A stretch of DNA of 64,000 bases from Microbotryum violaceum (Eukaryota), in NCBI GenBank assembly GCA_001244265.2, contig CDLV01000016.1, forward strand, positions 62,001 through 126,000. Reading direction: 5' to 3'. Positions 42,434 to 57,699 of the stretch are shown one piece after another (within the stretch, counting starts at the first letter, position 1; each line of letters opens with the position of its first letter). Both the position numbers and the translations under genes were made by a program. Below the pieces are notes generated by a model, which worked only from the letters and a program-made list of their open reading frames with translations, was not told the origin of the DNA and did no database searches.

Positions 42434-44150
42434 CGTTTGAAAGAGCTTGGACCTGAATCTGAGTTCAGAGGCAAGTGTTGTAGCGGGCAAAGACGCGACC
42501 GTGCCACGGTCGGCGCCCGCGTAGTCGCTTGACGTTCGACCGCGATGCCGAAATGACGCCGAAATGATCGGTTGAACTTGGCGAGCCTCTGAAGCTCTGA
42601 CTCACTGGACAGTGGCAGCGGAACAGCTGAGGCTCAGGTTGCTGAACCACAGGTAGAAGACCGTCGGGGAGAAACCTGCGCCTTAAAATTGCTATGGAGT
42701 TTTCTGTGAGCTGTTATGTCTGATTGCGACTGCGAAGGGTGCACTAAAGGGGTCATGGTAGTAGGTGTGCACAGAGCCTGGCCGTGCTCCGGGGCCGAGG
42801 GGCCGGTCCGGGCCATAAAGCGATACGGACCCAAATTCGGTGCGAGCATCACGTGACTTTCTCCGCCGTCAACGGCGAGTAAATGCCCTCGCAATCGGCC
42901 CGTTCAGACACTATATCGAGAACAAGGACTGAACGCTTAACCAAAGACTACGGTAGTCGTTGCCCTTGTCAAGGCGCACGTCGAGCGCTTGGCAGTGCAG
43001 GATCACTTAGGCTGAGCGCTCGACATTCAATGTTAACGTTCCAGGTCAGCTGGTCCCAGCCAGTTTGGCAGGCAGGTCGCCCGTGGCGGCACTGGAACGG
43101 AATTTTCTGACGAGGTACTAAAGCAGGTTTGGGCGCGGATCTGCGGGCCGCCCGACTTCCTATTTGGGACGAAGTCCTCGCAGACGAAAGATGCTTGCAA
43201 TCGACGCAAAGCGGCATTGAACAAATGCAGATACACTGAGAGTCGAATTATGCAACTGCCCATTTAGGTGAGAGCTTGCCATGTTTCGTCATGTCTTCTT
43301 GCCTGGCTTCATGTCCCGGCAGACCGAGTCCTCGTCGGCTCTGTCTCAGACCCAGCGCGAGCTGGTCCCTGGCAAGCCGCCGCTCGCAAGCCGTGAACCT
43401 GAGTCGGAAGCATCTCGAAAAATCTTTGTCAGGATCGCCGCTCGTTGGTCATCGTTGAACAACCAGCCCAAGTGAGCAGTGTTGGATATCCTCACTCCCG
43501 TCACTGCTAAGGTCAAGTCGTCAAGGCTACCATCAGCAAGGGGTGCCACTTACTACCAGCCGCCCGTCTAGCACCCCACCACCTTCATCAATCAACTTCT
43601 CCCCGCGCAGTGGTCCCTTCGTGCCCGTCTCGAACGACTTTCCAGCAGCCGCAACGCCAGCCAGCACCGTGACCGTCGGCAGGCACCTGGAGCGCACATA
43701 TAAGCAGCCTGCCACAAATCAACGAAGGCAGCAGCCTCGAGTCCCAACTTAAATAGAGATGATGAGCGCTCTACGATCACGCAGCCCTTTGCCAGCGACA
43801 CCTCACGAAATCAAGACCTATTTCTTGCCATGCACTACCACGACCTCTAGCAATACATGGACATGCTGTGAGTAGCGGTGCCGCGACTTGAAGCAATTGC
43901 AATGTACTTGAGAGAGCAGCCCCAGACCGCCTGCCGACCGCGCATCAGGCTGACTCAGGCCGCCTGCGACGCTGGTTGGCCGGCCGCCGGAGCGGGGCCG
44001 TTTCGGCCACTCGGCCGGAAGGCTTCGGCGCCGCACCCGTGTTCCACGGCGTCTCCTCTCTTTTGAGTCGACTTCGCTGCAGTCCGAACCTGGCGCACAC
44101 ATTCTCTCTGTAAAGCATCGACTCAATTACTGACCCCCAATAACGCTCAG

Positions 44151-45929
44151 ATCTGAACCGGCTGGACCAACTCTTCCTCAGCGAACCAGCCCACGGTTTC
44201 AAAACGCGGCTCATTGTCCTCCTCGGGTGCTTCTCTCTCATCGTCGCGCTTATGGCGACCCAACTGGTGCTGATCGAGGTGGAGCGGCGGCGCAACAAAC
44301 AACCGTACTGGCTCTGGCGATGGATACGAATAGAGAGAGAGCCCTTCCTCGTCACGCACCAGATCCTCATCACGGCCTACAGCGCCCTCGTCGCCGCGGT
44401 CATCAACATCTATGTCGTCTTTGAGTGGCGCATGGTCCTCGACCACGACTCGCAAAAGACGCGCATCGCGCGCAGGTCAACGATATATTTCCCAATGGTG
44501 CTCGGTGGTCTGCTGTGTAGCTTCTCGCTACTTCAGGCGTTCGTCGTCGTGCTGAGCCGCAAGGGCCGGACGTGGTCAAAGTGGACGCTGCGCAGCTGCG
44601 TCGTCGCCTACTTTCTCTGCATCATCCTCTTCACAACCGGGGTTGTCGTCATCGCTGTGATTGGAAGCAAATCGTGAGTTTTCGGATTCTTCTCTCTTTG
44701 TTTTGCATTAGAACACCCTCTTGGCCCCCTCCCTACAATCTGGTGCCGCCCCGCGTGTGTTGGCCGCTGACGGGTCGCTGACTCTGCTTTGCACGACTCG
44801 CAGGTGGACCAATATCTGGTTGCTTTACCAAGGAATTCGGGAGGACATCGTGAAATTGGTCGCCGCTTGGGTGCCGGGCACAACTCCACCAATAACACCC
44901 GCGCTTTACAGCGAGTTCAGACAGCTCCGTGCCACCGCCGCCTCGTCGTTCCGTCAACAATTCATAGCCAAATGGCTCTACACTGCCGTGGCTTTCCTAA
45001 ACCTCGTGGTAAGCTTGTCTTCTTTGGCAATAAGAAGCTGGATATCTTCCCTCGACGTGCTAAATGATCTGACTCCCTGCCTTTATCACTGGATGGGATC
45101 ACAGCTCGCATCGTTGTGCATGGCTCTATGGGCGATGATGCGGCGACAGCTTTCGAGACACTCCGAGAACATGGGCCGCGTCACGAGTGACGGCGAGATT
45201 TTCATCTCGAGCATCCAGGTGGAAATGAACCAGCTCGATGGCGCACAAGAAGAGATAGCCACCAATATGCATACGTTATCTCGCCTCACTTTCGCTCACA
45301 TCTCCAGCCCGATATCCGAGGACGGGCAGGACTACATGGGAGAAAAGGGGGCAGTGCCCGATCAGCAAAGCTCACCTCGGAGCGCGTTCCAAGCATCGAC
45401 AGCCCAACCATGGAAGGACAACCGGGAGCTACGACAAGCGAAGGATTGGGTTCTGATGATGGGAGGCGTGGTTATGATCACCTCGGCTCTGCTGGCGGCT
45501 GTTCTGACGTGGAGTTCAACGTTGATCGTCGTTCCCTTCGCGGCGATTCCCACGAATGACCGCTTTGCCGCGATTACGGAGATGGTCAATTTTCTCTATC
45601 TCTGGGTCTGGGCGATCGTCACACTTCCCTTCGCCGCCACAAACGCGTATCACGCTTGGTGCAAGCTTTCGCACACCATTGCGACTGCTGCACTCGACGA
45701 GTCAGAATCGAATCTGGCGACAGACGCTGGGACCAGAGGTATGCTGCCCTGGAAACCAGCCCGCGCAATCAGGGCGCAGGCTCGTTTCAGCGGCGCTGAG
45801 GAATCGGTGGACGCGTTTTTGCGAAGTTTGGAACCGCAATCCAACCAGATTCGAGCCGAAATGCCGCCGTCTTTGCATATCGGAGTGACCAGGATTGAGG
45901 CGCCAGAGTCGCCCTACTTCTCTGACTGA
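44151..45929 (+). CDS. Orphan seven-transmembrane (GPCR-like) protein, copy A; start codon/first exon not resolved
   Basis: Seven hydrophobic segments with a long loop between TM5 and TM6; highly similar to 51719-53488. An in-frame stop just upstream plus ACTGAC...CTCAG at 44128-44150 imply an upstream exon. Confidence 0.8.
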
Positions 45930-46499
45930 TCGAAATGACCCTCGCGTACACGGATGCGTAGAAGTCGACCTTTCGTCAGTCTTTGACAAGTACAACTCGC
46001 AACATCGGATGTGGGCAAGTTTTAGGGCGTAGCCTGCGGTTCAGGGACTTGCTTTTGATGCAGTATGATGTGACTTTCAGTGTGCTTTTAGTGATTTGCA
46101 GTTTTCAGTGCTTACGATCTAAACCAATGTAGACTATCTAGAAGTAAGACGCGGTACCGATCTTGTGTAACACATGAGCTCAGAGGATAAAACATTGCTT
46201 TTGGAATTTTTGTGTTTGATTTCAAAGGAGCACTGCTGCATGCACCGCGCCATGTCTGGTAGTCTGTCGCCAAGATAAAGGAGTTTGAACTCCACTTGTC
46301 CCACGGCAGCTCGAACCGTTGTCCTGTCGGGAAGGCAGTACCCGGAAGATTACTACTGTTTCTACCGAGCGCAGTATTGAATATCCCGGTCCAGATTGGC
46401 CGATCTTTGCTGAGGAAATAGGTGACACTCCGCCGTCGGCGCCGGAGATAGTGAAGAGCGATGCATCTGGTCCAGTCAAAAAAAAAAAAAATCAGGAAA

Positions 46500-46800
46500 A
46501 TGGCCGAAGCAGAACAGCGACAAGCCTTGACGATTCTTGGTGACTGGCGCTGCCAGATCAATTGCGGAGAGCCCAGTGTCAATCGCAAAGTGGCTGCGCG
46601 CGGGGTAGAACACAAAGGTGGCATTGCTTGGGACGTTGCCACGCGCCTTCTTGGACCGGCGCTAGCATGGGTGACAACAACCGTCAAGTCTTATTAAGAG
46701 GCTGGCTCATGAATGGCACTGGGCACGATTCCAAGAATATTCAATCAGATATGCGAGGAAAACTCAGATCAGGTTTAAGAATGGCATCGAAACTGTTGCT
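46500..46800 (+). mobile_element. Possible degraded retrotransposon gag fragment
   Basis: AT-richer intergenic block. The peptide VATRLLGPALAWVTT resembles the Ty3/gypsy gag L.G.A..W motif and is followed by stops. Confidence 0.25.
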
Positions 46801-47406
46801 TACCTCGGCAGTTAAGAATTCAGGGGCTCCTACAGGGGATCGCCCAGTAGTGCATTTATGACTTGAAACTTAAAACTGAGGGACGAACTTAAGCCTGCCA
46901 ACCCAGTGGCTTGAGCCGGCTTCACTCGATGATCGCAAAGTAAGATTGTCTTTGGTGACCAAACATTTCTCATGGTTGGGGTGTCTACAGGGTTGCTCTT
47001 TCCTTTCCTGATACCAGTGATAACCCGTTAAATTAACGGGATGCATATGATGACATGGGAGGAGGATAATCGAATCGGCTAAATCCCAATGTGAACAAAA
47101 GGACATTTTCTTACAAAACGTCAATATTCGCCGTTGTACTCTTCGAGAGGAGCGTGTAATGTGCTGTAGATTTTACCCAACTCCAAGTCGGCCTCTGCAG
47201 CTCTGCCCCTCCGCCGGCGGGTGGCCTAGCGTGATTTGTAATGAGGGCATGCGGTGAACGAGGCGGGCTTGCTCTCCTCACTCTCTGCGCACGCAAGCCC
47301 CAACTCGCAACTCGCAAACACCAAGCCGTCGACGCTCTCATCCCAAACAACCCACCTCGACGATTGAAACCTTCGTCACAGCCTCCGGACCGCTCCTCCT
47401 TGCACG

Positions 47407-48526
47407 ATGGCGCCTTCCAACTACCACGTGGTGACGTCGCCGGAACACCTGCAGCAAGTGCTGTCGACGGACCTGACGCTCGTGTCGGTGCTCTACTTCC
47501 GTGCCGACTGGGCCGAGCCGTGCCAGCAGATGGACCAGGTCGTGCAGCAGCTCGTGCAGCGATGGGACAAGGTCTTGTTCCTCTCTGTAAGTTGCAACTC
47601 GCGAGTCGGTTCGTCGAGGCGGGCGTGCTTTGTGCTGCTGGCCTACACGCGCGCGCCATCCATTTGCTCGATCGCTAATTGGTCGATGCGATGGCGCTGA
47701 CGGTGATCGCTGGCTGGCTTGACACAGATCGAGGCCGAGTCATTACCCGAGATTTCAGAATCGTTCGAAGTCGATGCCGTACCTTACTTTATCCTACTAC
47801 GAGTTGAGTCCCTGTGCATGTCCCCCGAGCAAGAGTCGTGGTCGATCGTGTCTGACTCTCTTGTCATCCTCCCTACTCTCCTCCACGACTTTGCAAACGC
47901 ACATCAGGGCCACACCTTGTTGACAAGACTGAGTGGTGCTCAACCTTCGGTGCTCGCATCGGCCATCAACCTGCACGTCAACAACAAGGCCGCGCTCGCA
48001 GGGCAATCGACCACCTCGGCACGACCGACCCAACCCCAAACACGCTACGACCCCAGCTCTTCCTCTTCCTCCCCTCCCAGAACAACGCCACATCCCGATG
48101 GGCACATCACAGCTACACGCGATTCGGACGAGTCGGACGAAGATCTGACGACAAGGTGTCATGAGTTGATGAAGCAATCCGACGTCGTGCTCTTCATGAA
48201 AGGGGACCGAAAGACCCCGAGGTGTGGCTTCTCGAGCAAGATCGTCAACATCCTCAATGAGCAGGATGTCGAGTTTACGACGTTTGATATCTTGTCTGAT
48301 GATGGGGTGCGACAAAGTAGGTGTGCTCCTTTGCCGAGACCCGTTCCGAGCTTCGGCTGCTGATTACCCTCCTTCTTTCGTATTCCACCCACTCCTCATA
48401 GAGCTGAAGAACCTCAACGACTGGCCCACGTTCCCCCAACTCATCATCAAGGGCGAGTTCGTCGGTGGCTTGGACGTCGTCAAGGAGATGGTCGAGAATG
48501 GCGAACTCAAGGAGATGCTCGCTTGA
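47407..48526 (+). CDS. GRX4: Monothiol glutaredoxin Grx3/4 (thioredoxin-like + CGFS Grx domain)
   Basis: [67 protein letters not shown]. Confidence 0.96.
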
Positions 48527-48663
48527 TCCCATCGGCTCCAAGCGCTGTTCCAGATCAATGTCGATATCCTTTTTTGTGCAATTTCACCTTGAGGGAAAAC
48601 ATCGTTCCACTGTGTGTGTACAAATATCTTGGAAAAGTACGCTCAGATCGTCTACGGAGTGCT

Positions 48664-50031
48664 TTAAGGCCAATACTCCTCTAAGCACTTGCCCAATTCA
48701 CCTCGCACAATCATACGCTCCATCTCCACCGTATCCCATCCACCTTCTTTCAAACAGCTCTCAACGCCCCATCGCTCCCCCTCTGAGATCCTAACCAATC
48801 CAGCGATCATCTTCTCCAACCCTTTCAACCGATCTCTCCGCTCCTCCCCCACCTCATCAAAGAAAGTACATCTTTTCCTCACCCACTCTGAATCGACCGG
48901 ATGTGACTGAAAGATGAAATAACCGAAATTAGGCAAAGCTCTCGCTTCCGGCCAAGTTTGTAAAGTTGGGGTTCCCAAGGTGGAAAAAATGGAAGCCAGG
49001 AGGGAGAAATCGGTGGGGTTTCGCGAAGGGAGTGTGAAGAGTCTTTGACGGTTCGGTCGTTGAGGAGGTGCGGGATTTTGGGTAGGACGAGAGGAATGGG
49101 TTAAAGGGGGTTCGGACCAATATCCATCTTGGGGGTCCGAATTAGAATTAGAATCCGAGTCGTCAGAGTCGGGGTCCCGAGTAGAGTTTTCGAATGGGGT
49201 CCAGAATTCAGCCAAGGTGCAGCCCAACATCCAGTGATCCAATCCTTTCGGATCGTAAGCGTTGGAGCCAAAGATCAACTCGGGTGCTCGATAGGGGAGA
49301 GTACCGAAATCGTGTTCTAGACCTTTGGGACCATCGACGAAGGGGAAATCGGACGCGGAGGAAGAAGTCCCGGGGGTGGGTAGGCAGCACCCAAAGTCGA
49401 TCAGTTTGAGACGGCCGTTGGAGGCGATGACGATGTTGGATGGGTTGAGATCGCGATGGGCTAGGTTGAGGGTGTGGTGGAGATGGTCGAGCGCTTGGAC
49501 GAGTTGGTGGGAGAGAGCGAGGACGAGGAAAAGGAACGAGGGTGAGGAGGGTACAAAGGAAGAATTGTCGAGCAAGGCTCGTAAGCTGTAAGGGTAGAAT
49601 GGGGTCAGGATCGAGTAGTGGGTCGAGGAAGCGTACGCATTCAACAGCGTGAGCACCTGCGTATATAAAACTCTCGAGGCGTTCAGAATGGACTACGGGC
49701 AGACCGTAACGAGTGGTTTGCGATGGCCTACATTGGCGTGCGGCGGGGACGAAGCGAGTGCGCTGATCTCCCTGCCAATGTGGTGTGGTCTCCGCTGGTG
49801 CGCCTCGAGGTGGGTGACCACTTTGATGACGATACGATCCTGAGCTCCGTCTTGGGCGATGTGAGCGGTGAGCGGTTGTGACAGGGAAGCGACAAAGTGA
49901 CGTGAAGCTGGTCCCGAGGCAAGTGGGGCCACGCTCGAGCCGATCACGTGCACGCCCGAGCCTTGCAGCGTTCCACCGGTGTGTAGGGTGGGGGAGTGCT
50001 CGAGGTTGTAGTGCTCGACTTGGAGTGTCAT
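48664..50031 (-). CDS. Divergent CMGC protein kinase, Csk1/Cak1-like CDK-activating kinase candidate
   Basis: IVIK, RPHHIGREISAL, HANVLTLL, AHRDLNPSNIVI, LIDFG, GTLPYRAPELIFG, IFSTLGTPTLQTWPEA. No canonical GxGxxG loop; one intron ~49657-49730. Confidence 0.8.
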
Positions 50032-50156
50032 CGTGCCATGGTCGGAGCGGGCGGTGTTGGTGGGAAAGAGCGTGACACTGCGCAGAACTTGAAGCCGAGC
50101 CCGACAGCCGGCGGCGTGTCAAGTGGGGGCAAGTTGCGCGGTCGAAAATGGTGATT

Positions 50157-50238
50157 AGAGCCGAGGCGGTGATACTAATTCAAATTGAAACCCCCACGCT
50201 GTTGATCAGAGCCGAAGCGGTAATATACTAATTCAATT
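50157..50238. promoter_or_regulatory. Duplicated ~28-bp motif in the short divergent promoter between the kinase and Med27
   Basis: AGAGCCGAGGCGGTGATACTAATTCAA and AGAGCCGAAGCGGTAATATACTAATTCAA; the two ATGs are ~320 bp apart, head to head. Confidence 0.5.
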
Positions 50239-50348
50239 TCCCCTAGGCCGTGCTAATCAGGAGTTGCTTCTGGTCTCTCTCCGCTCGTCGTGCTCGTGTG
50301 CTGTCAAGAGCAAGAGGGGCGGGGGAGCGACAACAACTCGACTCCACT

Positions 50349-51438
50349 ATGGCCACCACAGCAGGACTTCCCTCGCAATCTCCCGCACCTCCACCAGGCT
50401 CCTCGAACACGATCCCGTCCGAGATCAGCTCGCTCGAGTGCCTGTTGACGACCCTCGATCGAGTGCGCCAAGCGTTGCCCACGATCCTGCGTTCGTTCAG
50501 CTCCAACACCAGCTCGAACTCGATCGATGCCCTTTCCCGAGCCTACCACAGCTCGTCCGTGGAAGCAGTCGCTGCCCTTCGGACGCTAGGCGATCAACTG
50601 ACCGTGCTGGACCCGATCCTCGTCCGGGCGCACAAGAGCCAAGCGGACGATCCAACGGGCATACTCGTCAAGGCCAGGGTGGACCACACTCAGCAACTAC
50701 ACGCGCCCGATGACACGTTGTGGATCCAGCTGAACGCGCTTGCACAACACAAGCGACAGAAGCGCCTGCAGCAGCAACAGCAGATCGGCAAACGGTTCGG
50801 CACTCTTTCCCACTCGCGATCGTCTCGACGAACCTACCCGCACGAACCAGCGACGTTTGCCCCACCCCAGAATCGACACCAGTTACACGCCATACTACAG
50901 GAGTGGAAGGTGCGCCATGCCGACAACGTACTGCAATGCGAAATCGACCAAAGTGGCATCGACTTTGCTCCCGAAACGACCGAGATCAAATTCGTCCTCC
51001 GATCCGTCATGAAGGCCTACATCTCGATCCATTGGCAGACCCCGACCAAGAGCGATGATCAAGGTGACCCTATAGCAATACCTCAAGTCGAACGAGTCGC
51101 TTGTTTTGGATTGAATGAAACGGTCAGTACCGAAGAACCGACTCGTCTGTCCAGCCCCGTGTGCTCACTTCCGTCCCACCTCCACCGAATCACAGAAATC
51201 GAGCTATCTCGCATCGCAATACGTTCTGTTCCAGAACCTGACCCGAACAGCGATGGGCCTGATCGAAGGGACAAGATCAACCTTTGGCGAGCCGGTCTCA
51301 GGGACTCAAACTGATTTGGAGCAAGTCCTGGTGCGTAAACTCTTTTGCTTCGTCTTCAAAAAATAATGGCGGATGTTGACCAAAGGGGATCTCTTCGCAA
51401 TGCAGACGTTTTTAACCAACCCGCCACTGCCGTTTTGA
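50349..51438 (+). CDS. MED27: Mediator subunit Med27-like protein
   Basis: N-terminal helical LTTLDRVRQALPTIL. C-terminal FVLRSVMKAYISI...VERVACFGLNE/KSSYLASQYVLFQNLTRTA matches my recollection of the Med27 motif (v.gfnE...S.y.vFqk.T). Confidence 0.7.
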
Positions 51439-51718
51439 CATAGCGAGAAGAAAGAGAGAGAACAACAAATCTCAACCTGTTGTATCACCCTTTAGCGCTG
51501 GTCGCTGTCGAGACATCGCTCGCGAGAGAGGACAAAGAGAGCTCGGGATCAACTTCTTCGAGCTAAAGCTACACACTTGGTGATTGATTGACAACATGAG
51601 GAGGGGGCTTCAAACGCCAGACTAAGCAAAGATAGATATGCATACATACAACAGTGATTTCCGCAACGCTTCCGAAAAACAAGAATCCAACCACGTCCGT
51701 CGCTAAAAAAGGTGGACA

Positions 51719-53488
51719 TTACTTCGACATCTGCAGCATCACACGCTGCGTTCGTCGATCGCCCGCTACACTCTCCTCGTCCTTCGCCTCTTTTCGCACC
51801 CCCTCATTCCGAGGTTCCAAACTCCTCAAGAAAGCTTCCAATGAATCATCCGCGCCATCCGAGGAATGCGTCACCGATCTTGCCATCGCCGACGATTCGG
51901 CTACGTTCGTCCCGCCCAACGTTCTTGCTCCCTCCATCACCCTCACGACGTTGGGACCCAGGGCTTGGTCATTGCGAACAGTTCGGATCTTCTTCTTGGA
52001 CGCAACTAGTCGCCACGCTTGGTAGGTATTTGTAAGTGCGAAGGGTATACTAAGCAAAACCCAGACCCAGAGGAACAAAAAGTTGATCACCTCGGCTTCG
52101 GTCGAGAAGCGTCCGCTTCTGGGGATGACGATGAACGGGAGGATGACGACGGTCGAACTCCACGTGAGCACACCGGCGAATAAAATCGAAGCAATCATCG
52201 TGAAACCACCCATGAGGAGGACCCACGATCCTGCTCGTCGGAGATCTTGCGCGCTCTGCCATTTGACGGGTTGCGAAAAGGGGCAAGAATAGGTCAATAG
52301 CGTGGGTGAAGTCGTCTGATCGGCCGACGATGGAGGGGACATGGGTTTCCCATCCTCCGAACAAGGTGTAGACGACCACAAAAATTTCGTCCGGGATGTC
52401 GTATGGATCGCCGAACGTGTGAGGTTGCGCGAGTCGTCGAGATCAAAGACGTCGTTCGTCGTGTCGGTGGGTATGGCGCTCGGGTCGCGGTGCGCAGGGA
52501 CGCCTCTGATCGATTCGTCATGCCGTGACAGCTGATGTCGAATCATCACCCACAGACCCATACATAGCGAAGCGAGCTGATTCGTAAGGAGAGTAGCAGA
52601 ATGGGCGATATCAGTTCCGAACTTGCTGGAGCCGAATGCAAAGCTCGATCCAGGGTCTTGTGGCTCACCGTCAAATTGATGAAGGCGACAGTCGTATAAA
52701 GAGCTTTACTCGCCGTCTGGGTGCGATACGGCAGTCCTGCGCTGTGTCGAAGTTGGCCAAACCTGACGTACATAGACGCCGGCATTACCGGCCTTGTCCC
52801 TGGTTCCCAAGTTGGCGAAAATTCGTCGATGTCTCTCCGCAACGTTTGATAGAGCGACCAGAATCTTCCCCACCTGGTGCAAGGATCACGGATCGGTCGA
52901 GCATGGTCAGTACAGGGCCAGGAATGATTGGGATTAGACTTTGATTCAGTCTTACCCAATGTTCCCGATAACAGCGGTGATGGTAATCCCCGACGTAAAG
53001 AGAATGATGCAGAGGAAGTAGGCCACGACACAACTGCGCAGCGTCCATTTTGACCATGTCCGGCCCTTGCGGCTCAACACGACCACATACGCCTGCAGCA
53101 GCGAAAAGCTGCACAACATGCCACCGAGTACCATCGGAAAGTAGATTGTCGATCTGCGCGCAATGCGATCTCGCTGCGAGCGATGACCGAACACCATCCG
53201 CCATTCAAAGACGATGTAGGCAACGTTGACAATACCAGCGACGAGTGCCGTGTAGACCGTGATGAGGATCTGATGTGTGACGAGGAAGGGCATTCCCTCT
53301 ATTCGTACCCATCGCCACAGCCAATATGGTTGCTTGTTGCGCCGCCGCTCCGTCTCGACCAGCACGAGCTGAGTTACTGTGAGAGCCAGGATGAAGCCGA
53401 AGCAGACGAGGAGGACGATGAGCCGCGCCTTGTACCCGTCGGGCGGGGCCGGATAAAACATCCTATCCAAGCGGTCCAAATCTGCCAT
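51719..53488 (-). CDS. Orphan seven-transmembrane (GPCR-like) protein, copy B
   Basis: MADLDRLDRMF...RLIVLLVCFGFILALTVTQLVLVETERRRNKQPYWLWRW...; two introns at the same positions as copy A; TM6-7 WVLLMGGFTMIASILFAGVLTWSST...VINFLFLWVW. Confidence 0.85.
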
Positions 53489-54879
53489 AACGCCAAGAAA
53501 AATAGGTATTAGTGCAGTGCTGCCACAAGTTCAAAATCATGATATCCGGCGATAGACGGGCTGTAGGGCGCCGGCGCCAAATCATCTCAGCCCAAGATGC
53601 CCATTGCCCGACATGAGCGGCCGCCGCCGCGCAGGTCGTCGGACTCCGACGATCGCGGCCACTCACAGCATTGCCACGTGTTGGTCGACACCAAGGTACA
53701 GACGCTGAAGTAGGCCTTCAGTTCTTGCGTAGAAGCCGAGCGAAACGTGCGCCCCGCCATGGCCTCGTGGCTAGTGGCGCTCAGCACGACAACTTGAACC
53801 GCAGGCTAGCGATTCAGTACGAAACTTGGCGTCGCCCGCTCGAAATTTCCGGCCAAGCGATGCACCGCGTCCAACCCGACCCGTGCGACGTTCGCTACGT
53901 TGGGGCAGCAGCGCGCTATTCTGTGGACGTCCACACTGATACCAGGCTGGGCCAGCGACGTCTTCACCAAAGTTGTTAATGATGGTAAGCTGGAGCTGGG
54001 GGCCCAGCAGCAGCGTCGACTGAAAGTCGTCAAGCTCAAAAGGAGGAAGTCTTCTACTATGATTTGTCGACGACCCGCGCCCATCGAGTGGCCTCATTAG
54101 AACCGCCGAGCCTAAAACCTAAAACCGCTTCGGGCTCGGGACCTGAGAGTGACGTCCTCGTCCCTGGCCCGGGGCATTCAAGTTGGTGCTCCGAGGAGCC
54201 CGGTTAAAGCCCGGGGGTCGGCACACAAAACAACGCAGGGCTCGAGGGTCGTATCACCTAGATTCGTAGGTGTCTTCCCGATTCTTGGGGGCGCCTCTTC
54301 AGCCGCAAACCGGGTAATTCCCTGAGGATCAGCCACTCATATCTCACAGACCATGGAGGACGGATCCGGGCGGGCCCCGGCAGTCAATTGATCCCTTGTT
54401 TTTGCCCAAAGCGCTAATAGCAATAATGATGATTATTATACCCTGGAGTATCAAGGATAAAATAAAATAAAATCTGCACTCTGGAGTGGGACAAGTCGAC
54501 TGTTAATTTTGTCTGTCCACCCGCTGAGTTAGCACGGGGCGAGGTTTTATCTTTGCGTGCCACCCGGCCGCCGGGTTCTCGGGGTGCTTGGCACCGATTC
54601 CAGCCGACGAATACTCCAAATCTTCCGACTTGCTATTACCCGTGATGCGGCGGGTGGCACGATGAATCTCTCATCATCTCTTGACTATGAGATCCAATAC
54701 ATCAGACTGGTCGCCTTAGTGAAAGTCATTAGTCTTCAAGCACCTGGCTCGTAAGGTACATGCTAGGTAGGCAACTGATATCTGAAACCCCGCCGATCGT
54801 TCCTGAACTTACTTCAGCTCCAGCAGTCAGTTTGTTTAATTTGTTGACCCCAGGAATACCCTGGAGTTCCTGTTTTCAG

Positions 54880-55100
54880 CTAGGCACCAGACCAATGCTG
54901 CAAGTTCTTACTGTTGCACCATCAGAGGAGTAAGGGCTAGGCCTTTCATAGAGCAAAAAGGAGACCATGATTTGGAGATCAGCTTCGAGAGCATCCGTGA
55001 ACGCACGCGGCGAGGGTGTCGTTCGTGATGAAGGGGACGGGGTGGGTGACAGGGGTCAATTTATCTTGAAATGCCTTTGGAATCGGCGGAGCGATTTGAT
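54880..55100 (-). mobile_element. Degraded Ty3/gypsy pol (RT connection / RNase H) remnant
   Basis: Frameshifted fragments in the expected order on the minus strand: KAFQDKLTPV, FTDA, GAT.-ELAALVWCL (compare AF..lK..L, TDAS, Y..TE.ELLAIVWAL). Confidence 0.4.
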
Positions 55101-56366
55101 ATTTGACATCAAAAATCGGGGCCCGATCCCGGGATCGTCCCATTTCAGGGGTGCTTTTTGCTACGTCTCCCTTTTCGGTGGCGACACGCCCTGCCCCCAG
55201 AAAGGTGAACATCTGGTCATTCCCTGATTAATTGTCCTGAGACATATACTCTGAAACTTATCCTAACGCGGGAGAAGCGCACATCTGAAAAGTTTGGACC
55301 GAAAGGGGTCCAGGCCCCACTGCTTGCCGTTCCCACGTGATCGGCGACCATCGGCGTTAAGCAAGCCTGGGTGCCCGTGAGGTGCAGCAGCTTCTGGGAC
55401 AACTCGAAAATGATCCTAGTAGTCAAATTGGCCCTTGTTTTTTTATGAGGAATACAAGATACTTTGTGGTTCATTCCCCAAGCGTCCTTCATCATCAGCA
55501 GGGGAGGTCGCTCCGCAGGAACTCACGGCTGTCCTCGGGGTCTAAAAGTGTTCGAACACTGCAATGGATGTTCGGGCTTAGGCGCGATCGCATAGACTGA
55601 GCTCAAAGTATATACAGGACTAACGTTGGATACTTCAGGATATGTCACCAATCACCAAGACGCCGTACAAGATGTACGCAAGGGTCGACTAGGACAAACA
55701 TTCAATGCAGCCACCGTCGGAGTGATTGTCAACCGCGCCGGTGCTCTTCATGCGCCGTTCGCATCATGACTTATGACCTTCAGGATCTTGCGGTCCCGGC
55801 GAAAGTTGACCGTTTGGCCGAGTTTCCAAGCTTCTTAAGAAAGCCGGCAGTGACTCCTTGTTGCCAGAAGACTGCGTCACCGTTCTCGCCACTCCAACTT
55901 CTCTGAGAAGATGGGCAACTCAGACTTGGTCATGGCCGGCAGCCCGAACTTCTTTGCCGTCTGCCGTCCTCGGAAGATCGATAATTTTTTCTTAAGGCCG
56001 ACGCAAACCAAGCTTGGTTCACTTTGGTGATTCCTAAGGGAAGGCTCGACGCCAGCCCAGACCCAAAGGAACAAGTGTTGATCATGGACCTGTAGGTTTT
56101 GTGCTGCCGGGGATGGCGCTCGAAGGCAATACTCACGTGGTCCTCAATCTCAACAACATGACGCCCGCGAGTAGAGTTGATGCGATCATTGTGAAAAATT
56201 CCATGACCAAACACCACGATTCGACGTCTGTTCCACCCGTGTTGCAGCGGTCAAGGAGTGTCAATCACCAAGCAAAACAAGATTCGTAACAGCTAGTGTA
56301 AATCACTGCCATGAATCGTAGCTTACTCGCTCTAATAACGACAACACCGGTTGTGAAGAGAAAAAG

Positions 56367-56774
56367 TGTCAGAGATTATAATGCTGCTTCATCCCACTTC
56401 GAGTACCGATTATGATCAGTTACTAGTTGTAGATATCAGCGGCCTCTCGCGCCTCGAGCCTAGTGAAAGGTACGAGATTGCTCTCGAGCCTCACTGATTC
56501 CGAATCCAAACAGAAAGTATTAAACGGTGTATTCGCAGGCGAAGAAAAACTACTAAAAGGACTAAGATCAAGAGACGCGGCGGCGCCGTGCGCGAGGGCA
56601 AGCGTGAGGCCGCAGAGGTTGGCTCGAGGTCGTCGTGAGGCGTAAGCGGAGCGGCGCCTTACACCTAGCTCGCGCGCGCTTCCATAGCCTTTCTTCTTTC
56701 TCTTCAACTATCTTATCTATCATCTTCGGCTCTCATACTTACGTGTCTCGTGCTTGGGCCTCAGAGTTCTAACA
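56367..56774. mobile_element. Solo LTR inserted in the 7-TM pseudogene
   Basis: Termini TGTCAGA...TCTAACA (near-perfect inverted ends), flanked by AAAAG/GAAAG (4/5 TSD). Host gene sequence resumes on both sides. Confidence 0.75.
56428..56663 (-). mobile_element. Second solo LTR nested inside the first
   Basis: Minus strand TGTAAGGCGC...ATCTACA; homologous to 18031-18248. Confidence 0.8.
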
Positions 56775-57699
56775 GAAAGTTGGCGACGACGTAGCTGCGC
56801 AGCGTTTGCGGCTCAGTACGACGACGAACGCCTGCAGAAACGAGAAGCTACACGGCAGACCACCGGAACACCATTGGGAAATAAATTGTCGACCTGCGCG
56901 TGATGCACGTCCTTTGCGAGTCGTGATTGAGGACCATGCGCCACTCAAAGACGACATAGAAGATGTTAATGAGCGCGGCGACGAGGGCGCTGTAAGCTAT
57001 CACAATAAAATGCGAGCGCGGAAGATAGACATACGATAGGAGAGAGCTAGCGACGCCGAAGTCAGGACCACAGTGTAGAGCGAGTGATGAGAAAGCTACC
57101 AAGAGTAAACAGCTGCGTGGGAGGAAAGTGCCTGCGGGAAGAAAGCCCCGCGCGCTCCCTAACTTAAACATAGCAAACCCCAATACCAAAGTGATGAGGA
57201 TCTGGTTCGTGACGAGGAAGGGCTCTCTCTCTGACCATATCCACGCCGAAGCCAGTACGGTCGCTTGTTGCGCCGCCGCTCCACCTCGATCAGCACCAGT
57301 TGGGTCGCCGTGAGCGCGAAGGTGAAGCCGGTGTTTCAATCTGAACCATGGCTGCCAACACAATTACAAGCAAGATCTATCATGGGAACCGGCAAGAGGT
57401 TCGAAAAATGGACTAACAATCGCGTCACCAGTGAACGGAGCGCTTAGGCAAGACCTCATCAGGCATTTTGCACAGTCTTGCCTATCTATTGCGACAAGAC
57501 TGTGCAAGACTATGAGACTATGGCCGACTAGGGACAACTGGGCATACCGAGATCTCGCCGAACTGATAGCGCATTAGCGACTGATGGCAAGAGAAGAGTC
57601 TGCGTTTGAACGGATCTTCAACGCCGATCAAGAGGCTGAGTACCCCTGGGTCACCGAGAAAAGGAACAGCTGAAGGAACCTCACTCATATGTACAACAC

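What the first reader, a model, noticed from the sequence alone, without database searches (positions are those of the whole stretch)
44151..57345. Orphan 7-TM GPCR-like family in local birth-and-death evolution
Seen: three paralogs in 13 kb, A (+) and B (-) intact and C dead. Seven hydrophobic helices, a basic RRQLSRH/RHQLSRH after TM5, a long divergent third loop and a cytoplasmic tail with conserved AFLRSLEP. The loop after TM1 (ERRRNKQPYWLWRW) and the TM3-TM4 loop (LSRKGRTWSKWTLRSC) are almost invariant, while the TM4-TM5 loop diverges. I recognise no STE3, Git3, PTH11, opsin or PAQR motif. Inference: an undescribed lineage-specific receptor family with a conserved intracellular coupling face and variable ligand face, possibly for host sensing.
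Basis: partly seen in the sequence, partly recalled or inferred. Interest (0 to 1): 0.78.

Follow-up and report, generated by a model that had tools for sequence, protein, structure and literature searches.

The report
Unnamed fungal seven-helix receptor family
Two intact genes and one broken copy in an anther-smut fungus belong to an unnamed family of membrane proteins shaped like G-protein-coupled receptors, shared with free-living yeasts, which probably sense chemicals outside the cell rather than the host plant in particular.

Summary
The three copies are real. C is a broken A/B mosaic with two insertions. AlphaFold gives seven helices with confidence, and all 50 top structural matches are GPCR-fold chains (Z 14-17). 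No Pfam family fits. Co-folding with a Gi-like G-alpha gave weak support only (0.48 against 0.00). The family is wider than these copies: 62 relatives were found, all 27 named ones in Microbotryomycetes and 23 of them outside Microbotryum, and this genome has at least 13 more loci, several in tandem clusters. A and B split before four Microbotryum species did. The 'invariant' loops are specific to A/B and partly reflect old gene conversion; the family's real signature is a beta-hairpin in the first inner loop. Host sensing is not supported: B falls 11- to 15-fold in infected buds. Verdict: an apparently undescribed, class-wide GPCR-fold family, ligand unknown.

The parts
43759..45929 (+). Gene A, 553 aa, exons 43759-43867, 44151-44673, 44804-45008, 45105-45929; corresponds to MVLG_04365 (whose model lacks the first 70 residues)
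   Evidence: Gene model with GT-AG introns; exon 1 agrees with the M. saponariae orthologue P0007; introns 2 and 3 spliced in a contig of run X7; intron 1 not covered by a spliced contig
43759..43867 (+).
51719..53760 (-). Gene B, 560 aa, exons 53760-53667, 53481-52956, 52873-52669, 52576-51719; corresponds to MVLG_04361
   Evidence: cluster look-up; gene order; all three introns joined in run X7, intron 3 also in X2
53667..53760 (-).
55810..57335 (-). Pseudogene C: 5' part (end of TM1 to TM4) A-like, remains of TM6, TM7 and tail more decayed and leaning to B; frameshifts, stops, no exon 1, TM5 region not found
   Evidence: 89.7% to A against 78.7% to B at 57191-57335; 57.8% to A against 68.8% to B in the tail
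56464..56663 (.). 200-bp high-copy repeat inside C, TG...CA ends, 5-bp direct flanks (CCTAG): solo-LTR-like
   Evidence: about 40 scored copies elsewhere in the genome at 91-95% identity, 335 candidates; ends and flanks
56998..57190 (.). 193-bp insertion that splits the TM2 coding part of C
   Evidence: part of it matches G000:C9:1523019-1523218 at 80-84%
44261..44640 (+). Approximate tract in exon 2 (first inner loop to TM4) with lowered synonymous divergence between A and B; probable old gene conversion plus strong purifying selection
   Evidence: fourfold-site differences 18 of 52 inside against 62 of 93 outside, Fisher p=0.0002; against other TM regions 28 of 46, p=0.015
47409..51440 (.). 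Three unrelated genes between A and B: glutaredoxin (+), protein kinase (-), and a hypothetical gene (+); ends approximate
   Evidence: Pfam Glutaredoxin and Pkinase; MVLG_04364, 04363, 04362

Best explanation
A and B are plasma-membrane receptors of an unnamed GPCR-fold family spread through the class Microbotryomycetes. Shown (by prediction and comparison): seven helices in GPCR order, N-terminus out, long first outer helix extensions, a beta-hairpin in the first inner loop, a disordered third inner loop and tail. Inferred: a small molecule or peptide binds at the outer mouth of the bundle, where family-wide residues sit (Arg at the start of TM1 in 52 of 57, Arg at the start of TM3 in 48 of 57, Glu at the start of TM7 in 46 of 57), which would suit an anionic ligand such as an organic or fatty acid or a peptide end; the signal passes through the conserved inner face (hairpin, LQA at the end of TM3, RxQ[IL] after TM5) to a heterotrimeric G protein. 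They act mainly in the yeast and mated stages outside the plant, as general environmental or nutrient sensors. The family turns over by tandem duplication, ectopic gene conversion and loss; C is one such loss.
For: AlphaFold model of the B orthologue, pLDDT 77.8, pTM 0.76, helices above 90; 50 of 50 listed matches among 48,161 chains are GPCRs or a designed GPCR fold, best Z 16.6, rmsd 3.7, 225 aligned; a distant member gives the same fold and hairpin. Family-wide K+R content 22.5% and 19.3% in inner loops 1 and 2 against 4.7% in the N-terminus and 8-11% in outer loops. Column conservation. Co-fold with the Gi-like G-alpha of the same species: weak support, 0.48 against best control 0.00, runs agree in at least 44% of contacts, partner pLDDT at least 69; the mark was reached by 51 of 78 solved and 2 of 108 mismatched pairs, at 0.60 or under by only 5 of 78 solved and all 4 passing mismatches; GPCR-G-alpha complexes are solved, so it may reflect likeness. 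Six G-alpha loci in the genome. B mated 227/196 against 13-20 in infected buds, and higher on water and rich medium than in late infection. Tandem clusters on C5, C6, C7, C16 each form a clade.
Against: No class A DRY motif or conserved cysteine column in the family consensus. Foldseek gave no match at E<=0.001; structural rmsd values are high (3.6-7) and identities 5-12%. The top match of the second model is LYCHOS/GPR155 (Z 17.8, tied with true GPCRs), a GPCR-fold domain recalled to signal without G proteins. A and B have lost several family-conserved core residues (W153, N183, N277 in B numbering). No ligand, location or phenotype is known. About 24% of all genes are down in infected male plants, so the expression trend is not rare.
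Confidence: 0.68

Rival explanations
1. GPCR-fold sensor or trafficking protein that signals without G proteins (as recalled for LYCHOS/GPR155 and reported for TM184), the conserved inner beta-hairpin binding an arrestin-like or other adaptor.
For: LYCHOS heads the match list of the second model, three chains in the top ten; no DRY-like motif; the most conserved loop family-wide is the first inner loop (0.42), not the second (0.30); PMC13581589 (abstract and passages seen) shows GPCR-fold proteins acting on vesicles.
Against: LYCHOS is tied within about 1 Z of true GPCRs and is not among the 50 rows for the B model; no Pfam match to any transporter-like family above cut-off; many-copy expansion with variable outer loops is typical of sensory receptors (own knowledge); weak G-alpha co-fold support.
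Confidence: 0.2
2. A, B or a paralogue is the receptor for plant-surface lipids (phytol, alpha-tocopherol, oils) that switch mated cells to infectious hyphae: host sensing before entry.
For: Mated cells form filaments in response to these lipids (PMC4469406 passages); B and MVLG_04066 are high in mated cells and fall after entry; several top structural matches are lipid receptors, though all rows are near-tied.
Against: 23 of 27 named relatives are outside Microbotryum, mostly free-living yeasts; B is as high in haploid cells on rich medium as on water (126 against 136), and haploid cells show no visible response to the lipids; the paper itself points to secreted lipases.
Confidence: 0.1
3. 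Seven-helix transporter, channel or membrane enzyme whose likeness to GPCRs is only a common helical arrangement.
For: Sub-threshold Pfam hits to TMEM164 and TctB on the first half; helical bundles can reach Z about 13 by chance (note).
Against: Z 14-18 over 225-290 residues covering all seven helices, and no transporter or enzyme among 50 rows in either wide search apart from the GPCR-fold part of LYCHOS; Pfam hits far below cut-off.
Confidence: 0.04

Closest known systems
Gpe1 (Pit1, UMAG_01374) of Ustilago maydis and its DUF6533 structural relatives (PMC13652807; abstract and two Results sections read)
   Same: Basidiomycete 7-TM protein of a smut fungus recognised as a GPCR by structure, short N-terminus with outer extension, disordered tail.
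   Different: Gpe1 itself was not aligned.
DUF6534 putative GPCRs of Agaricomycetes (PMC12842992; abstract and passages seen)
   Same: Large, lineage-restricted, uncharacterised 7-TM expansion supported by G-alpha co-folding.
   Different: Different class of fungi; no DUF6534 hit; that paper's main text names neither Microbotryum, Rhodotorula nor Pucciniomycotina.
STE3 pheromone receptors (fungal class II, PF02076)
   Same: Nearest named family by language-model features, 0.76-0.83, lead level only.
   Different: No Pfam STE3 hit; the family profile scores at most 2.6 bits on the coding frames of the genome's two STE3 loci.
Animal GPCRs (EP1, CB2, TAS2R14, NTSR1, GABA-B, Smoothened) and the GPCR-fold domain of LYCHOS/GPR155
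   Same: Same seven-helix fold, Z 14-18.
   Different: 5-12% identity, no class stands out, no sequence match in PDB (best E 0.36); beta-hairpin in the first inner loop is a feature of this family's models.

Membership tests
GPCR fold (7-TM receptors) | Seven TM helices in GPCR order | tested here: met
   (predicted models)
GPCR fold (7-TM receptors) | N-terminus outside, C-terminus inside | tested here: met
   K+R bias across 57 members and colinear superposition on GPCRs; no dedicated topology predictor or experiment
GPCR (functional sense) | Couples to a heterotrimeric G protein | tested here: inconclusive
   weak support, 0.48 against 0.00, one of six G-alpha loci tried
GPCR (functional sense) | Ligand-dependent activation at the plasma membrane | not testable with these tools
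   needs reporter assay and localisation
Class A (rhodopsin-like) | DRY at end of TM3, NPxxY in TM7, TM3-ECL2 disulfide | tested here: not met
   consensus has LQA at the end of TM3, no such motif and no conserved Cys column
STE3 (class II) | Pfam PF02076 above cut-off or profile match to STE3 proteins | tested here: not met
   0 of 9 at E<=1, 0 of 61 at E<=0.01; profile against own STE3 loci 2.6 bits
Git3, PTH11/CFEM, microbial opsin, PAQR, cAMP-receptor-like, 7tm_2 | Pfam domain of the class | tested here: not met
   no such family among hits of 61 relatives at E<=0.01 or of A/B pieces and orthologues at E<=1
DUF6533 / DUF6534 basidiomycete GPCRs | Pfam DUF6533 or DUF6534 domain | tested here: not met
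   25 of 56 weak families shown do not include them
Gpe1-like receptors | Structural closeness to the Gpe1 model (TM-score about 0.8) and its three conserved patches | not testable with these tools
LYCHOS/TM184-type GPCR-fold proteins | Closer structural match to this group than to GPCRs | tested here: inconclusive
   top row for one model, tied within about 1 Z; not listed for the other

The most novel reading that the evidence does not exclude
An undescribed class of fungal GPCRs, the main receptor repertoire of Microbotryomycetes (15-20 genes in this genome), that couples to G proteins through a beta-hairpin in the first inner loop instead of a DRY-type switch, and one of whose Microbotryum members is the long-sought sensor for the plant lipids that trigger infectious hyphae.
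Probability: 0.1. Interest if true: 0.85.

Novelty: new variant of a known kind. Interest (0 to 1): 0.5.

Why it matters
Fungal GPCR catalogues rest on Pfam and HMM classes, and this family falls outside all of them while giving at least 15 genes in one anther-smut genome and many in red yeasts and their kin. If it couples to G proteins it is a missing receptor class for a group that holds a model pathogen and industrial yeasts, and it supplies a short, defined candidate list for how these fungi sense nutrients or plant-surface cues. The gene-conversion result is a warning that near-identity between paralogues is not by itself evidence of a conserved coupling face.

Tried and rejected
Pfam: no family above cut-off for A/B pieces and orthologues or for 61 relatives; weak TMEM164, TctB, Fig1 hits rejected as hydrophobic noise. 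PDB sequence search with the profile: best E 0.36. Foldseek PDB: none at E<=0.001, best 5-HT2A at E 0.21. Word-indexed search with the 57-sequence alignment returned only 7 Microbotryum proteins, so it did not extend the range. DUF6533 search of the genome rang nowhere, controls included: uninformative. Ste2, Ste3 and other fungal receptors are not listed in the wide fold searches, which does not exclude them. Candidate locus C7:1068 kb was rejected (no profile hit); C7:1355 kb and C5:150 kb were left out of the tree as too partial. 'Recent local burst' rejected for A/B. 'Invariant motifs define the family' rejected. Recurrent neighbour or ligand gene: 84 flanking frames of at least 135 aa scanned, no shared neighbour across loci; small ORFs were not examined. 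No RNA holder was listed on record as RNA; the laid runs are guessed RNA contigs. MVLG_04365 (A) is absent from the differential-expression tables searched, which does not tell its level. Literature: no paper holds MVLG_04365; searches showed no description of the family; supplements of PMC12842992 and PMC13652807 (cluster and Foldseek hit lists) were not read and could list members.
Full report
Observation. The window is G000:C14:62001-126000 of a 33.2-Mb, 20-contig genome. The best protein hits are Microbotryum genes: A matches MVLG_04365 and B falls in the cluster of MVLG_04361, and the published gene order agrees. With it, A is 553 aa and B 560 aa, each with three GT-AG introns at the same positions and seven hydrophobic segments. 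Guessed-RNA contigs join A introns 2 and 3 and all three B introns (run X7; B intron 3 also X2; 4 runs laid); A intron 1 rests on the model and on the M. saponariae orthologue.

Copy C. It runs from 57335 to about 55810 with frameshifts and stops. Its 5' part is A-like (89.7% and 81.7% to A against 78.7% and 65.8% to B), its remnants of TM7 and tail lean to B (tail 68.8% against 57.8%; TM6 undecided). It carries a 193-bp insertion and a 200-bp repeat with TG...CA ends and 5-bp direct flanks, present in about 40 scored copies elsewhere. Annotated fragments that match C exist in M. silenes-dioicae (P0013) and M. saponariae (P0072), so C is not a fresh event.

Fold. No Pfam family reaches its cut-off for the A/B pieces and orthologues (9 scanned) or for 61 relatives (one carries an unrelated, sub-threshold F-box-like piece). 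AlphaFold2 on a 57-sequence alignment gives pLDDT 77.8, pTM 0.76, seven helices above 90, a two-strand hairpin at 87-100 in the first inner loop, and disorder in the third inner loop and tail. Foldseek finds nothing at E<=0.001, but the exhaustive alignment to 48,161 chains lists only GPCRs and one designed GPCR fold in its 50 rows, Z 14.1-16.6; no class stands out. A distant member from Meredithblackwellia gives the same architecture and hairpin (pLDDT 82.9) and the same kind of list, headed by LYCHOS/GPR155 at Z 17.8, tied with EP1 at 16.8. Basic residues are enriched in inner loops 1 and 2 across the family, in line with N-out topology.

Range and copy number. A profile of six Microbotryum proteins found 62 representatives at E<=0.001. 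I looked up 30 of the 62: 27 are named, 4 from Microbotryum and 23 from Leucosporidium, Meredithblackwellia, Pseudohyphozyma, Rhodosporidiobolus, Rhodotorula, Sporobolomyces and unclassified Microbotryomycetes (their class and free-living habit are from my own knowledge). The ESM Atlas gave 26 of 30 hits in Pfam-less clusters, the top three basidiomycete at 0.96-0.97, with STE3 and 7tm_2 at 0.83 as leads only. The search was not iterated, so a wider range is not excluded. In this genome, searches with four distant members and profile scoring of the fetched loci give 13 further loci at 128-304 bits and five weak ones at 26-50 bits; this is a lower bound and their reading frames were not fully modelled. 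In a tree of 76 sequences (short fragments and two partial loci left out) the A and B clades each hold M. intermedium, M. saponariae, M. silenes-dioicae and the window copy, with a single Leucosporidium protein as sister (0.99); the tandem clusters on C5, C6, C7 and C16 are each monophyletic. So duplication and loss do shape the family, genome-wide and over a long time, but A and B are a stable old pair.

Which face is conserved. Family-wide conservation is highest in TM3 (0.47) and the first inner loop (0.42, WLxRxVxRxxGxxxVxN); the second inner loop is middling (0.30); outer loops score 0.33, 0.25 and 0.16. Near-invariant residues also sit on the outer side: R51, R141, E437. Between A and B, fourfold-degenerate sites differ at 18 of 52 in the tract from the first inner loop to TM4 against 62 of 93 outside (p=0.0002) and 28 of 46 in the other TM regions (p=0.015); within residues 139-194 dN is 0.02 at dS 1.3. 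Old gene conversion plus strong purifying selection explains both, and the mosaic C points the same way; higher GC3 in this tract of A (0.82) may contribute.

Function. The genome has six G-alpha loci. One co-fold, B orthologue with the Gi-like subunit of the same species (P0077), scored 0.48 in three runs against 0.00 for the best of three controls; contacts agree at least 44%, partner pLDDT at least 69. The tool calls this weak: the mark was reached by 51 of 78 solved and 2 of 108 mismatched pairs, at 0.60 or under by 5 of 78 solved and all 4 passing mismatches, and likeness to solved GPCR complexes may drive it. Published expression rows: MVLG_04361 is 227/196 in mated cells and 13-20 in stage 8-10 infected buds, log2 fold -3.4 to -3.9 (PMC5919739 supplement 2), and 136 on water, 126 on rich medium, 32 in late infection (PMC4469406 supplement 15); the paralogue MVLG_04066 falls likewise. 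A is not in these tables. About 24% of genes are down in infected male plants. This argues against sensing inside the host; sensing of plant-surface lipids before entry, which makes mated cells form hyphae, stays possible but unsupported.

Comparison and novelty. It works like a fungal GPCR expansion of the Gpe1/DUF6533 or DUF6534 kind, but fails the Pfam tests for those and for STE3, Git3, PTH11, opsin and PAQR. Five searches and term look-ups in PMC12842992 and PMC13308352 (passages only) found no description; their supplements and subscription papers were not seen. Papers seen: PMC13652807 abstract and two sections; PMC12842992 abstract and passages; PMC4469406 and PMC5919739 passages and supplement rows; PMC13308352 and PMC13581589 passages. 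Verdict: a real, apparently undescribed, class-wide GPCR-fold family; G-protein coupling likely (about 0.7) but not shown; ligand unknown; interest 0.5.

Noticed in passing
window 43240-43759: A lies head to head, about 500 bp apart, with an S28 serine carboxypeptidase gene (MVLG_04366; a second copy MVLG_04367 follows), which is also down in infected buds. Could hint at peptide ligands or be chance.
   Followed up: partly
L084:858-1418 and L086:1010-4591 (G000:C5:150-176 kb): The C5 cluster of four weak family members is interleaved with and flanked by insulinase (M16) peptidase sequences, as if receptor and peptidase were duplicated together.
   Followed up: no
window 56464-56663: High-copy 200-bp solo-LTR-like repeat, covered by contigs in all four laid runs.
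   Followed up: partly
G000:C14:216-221 kb (L054, L058): Two divergent G-alpha genes in tandem about 100 kb from A/B on the same contig; six G-alpha loci in all.
   Followed up: no
window 43759-43867 and 53667-53760: The two N-terminal cysteines of A and B are not part of the family consensus, which has LPxxPxGxNP there; a subfamily-specific disulfide is possible.
   Followed up: no
A and B, TM3, TM4, TM5 and start of TM7: The A/B clade has replaced family-conserved core residues (W153, N183, N277, W433 in B numbering), suggesting changed activation or ligand.
   Followed up: no
protein P0012 (M. saponariae Chr11-1g03239): A further A-like exon-2 fragment some 40 gene numbers from A in M. saponariae: this segment seems to be copied repeatedly.
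   Followed up: no
window 54100-55300: Stretch downstream of C with degenerate reading frames and multi-copy read cover at about 54844-55324; probably a mobile-element remnant.
   Followed up: no
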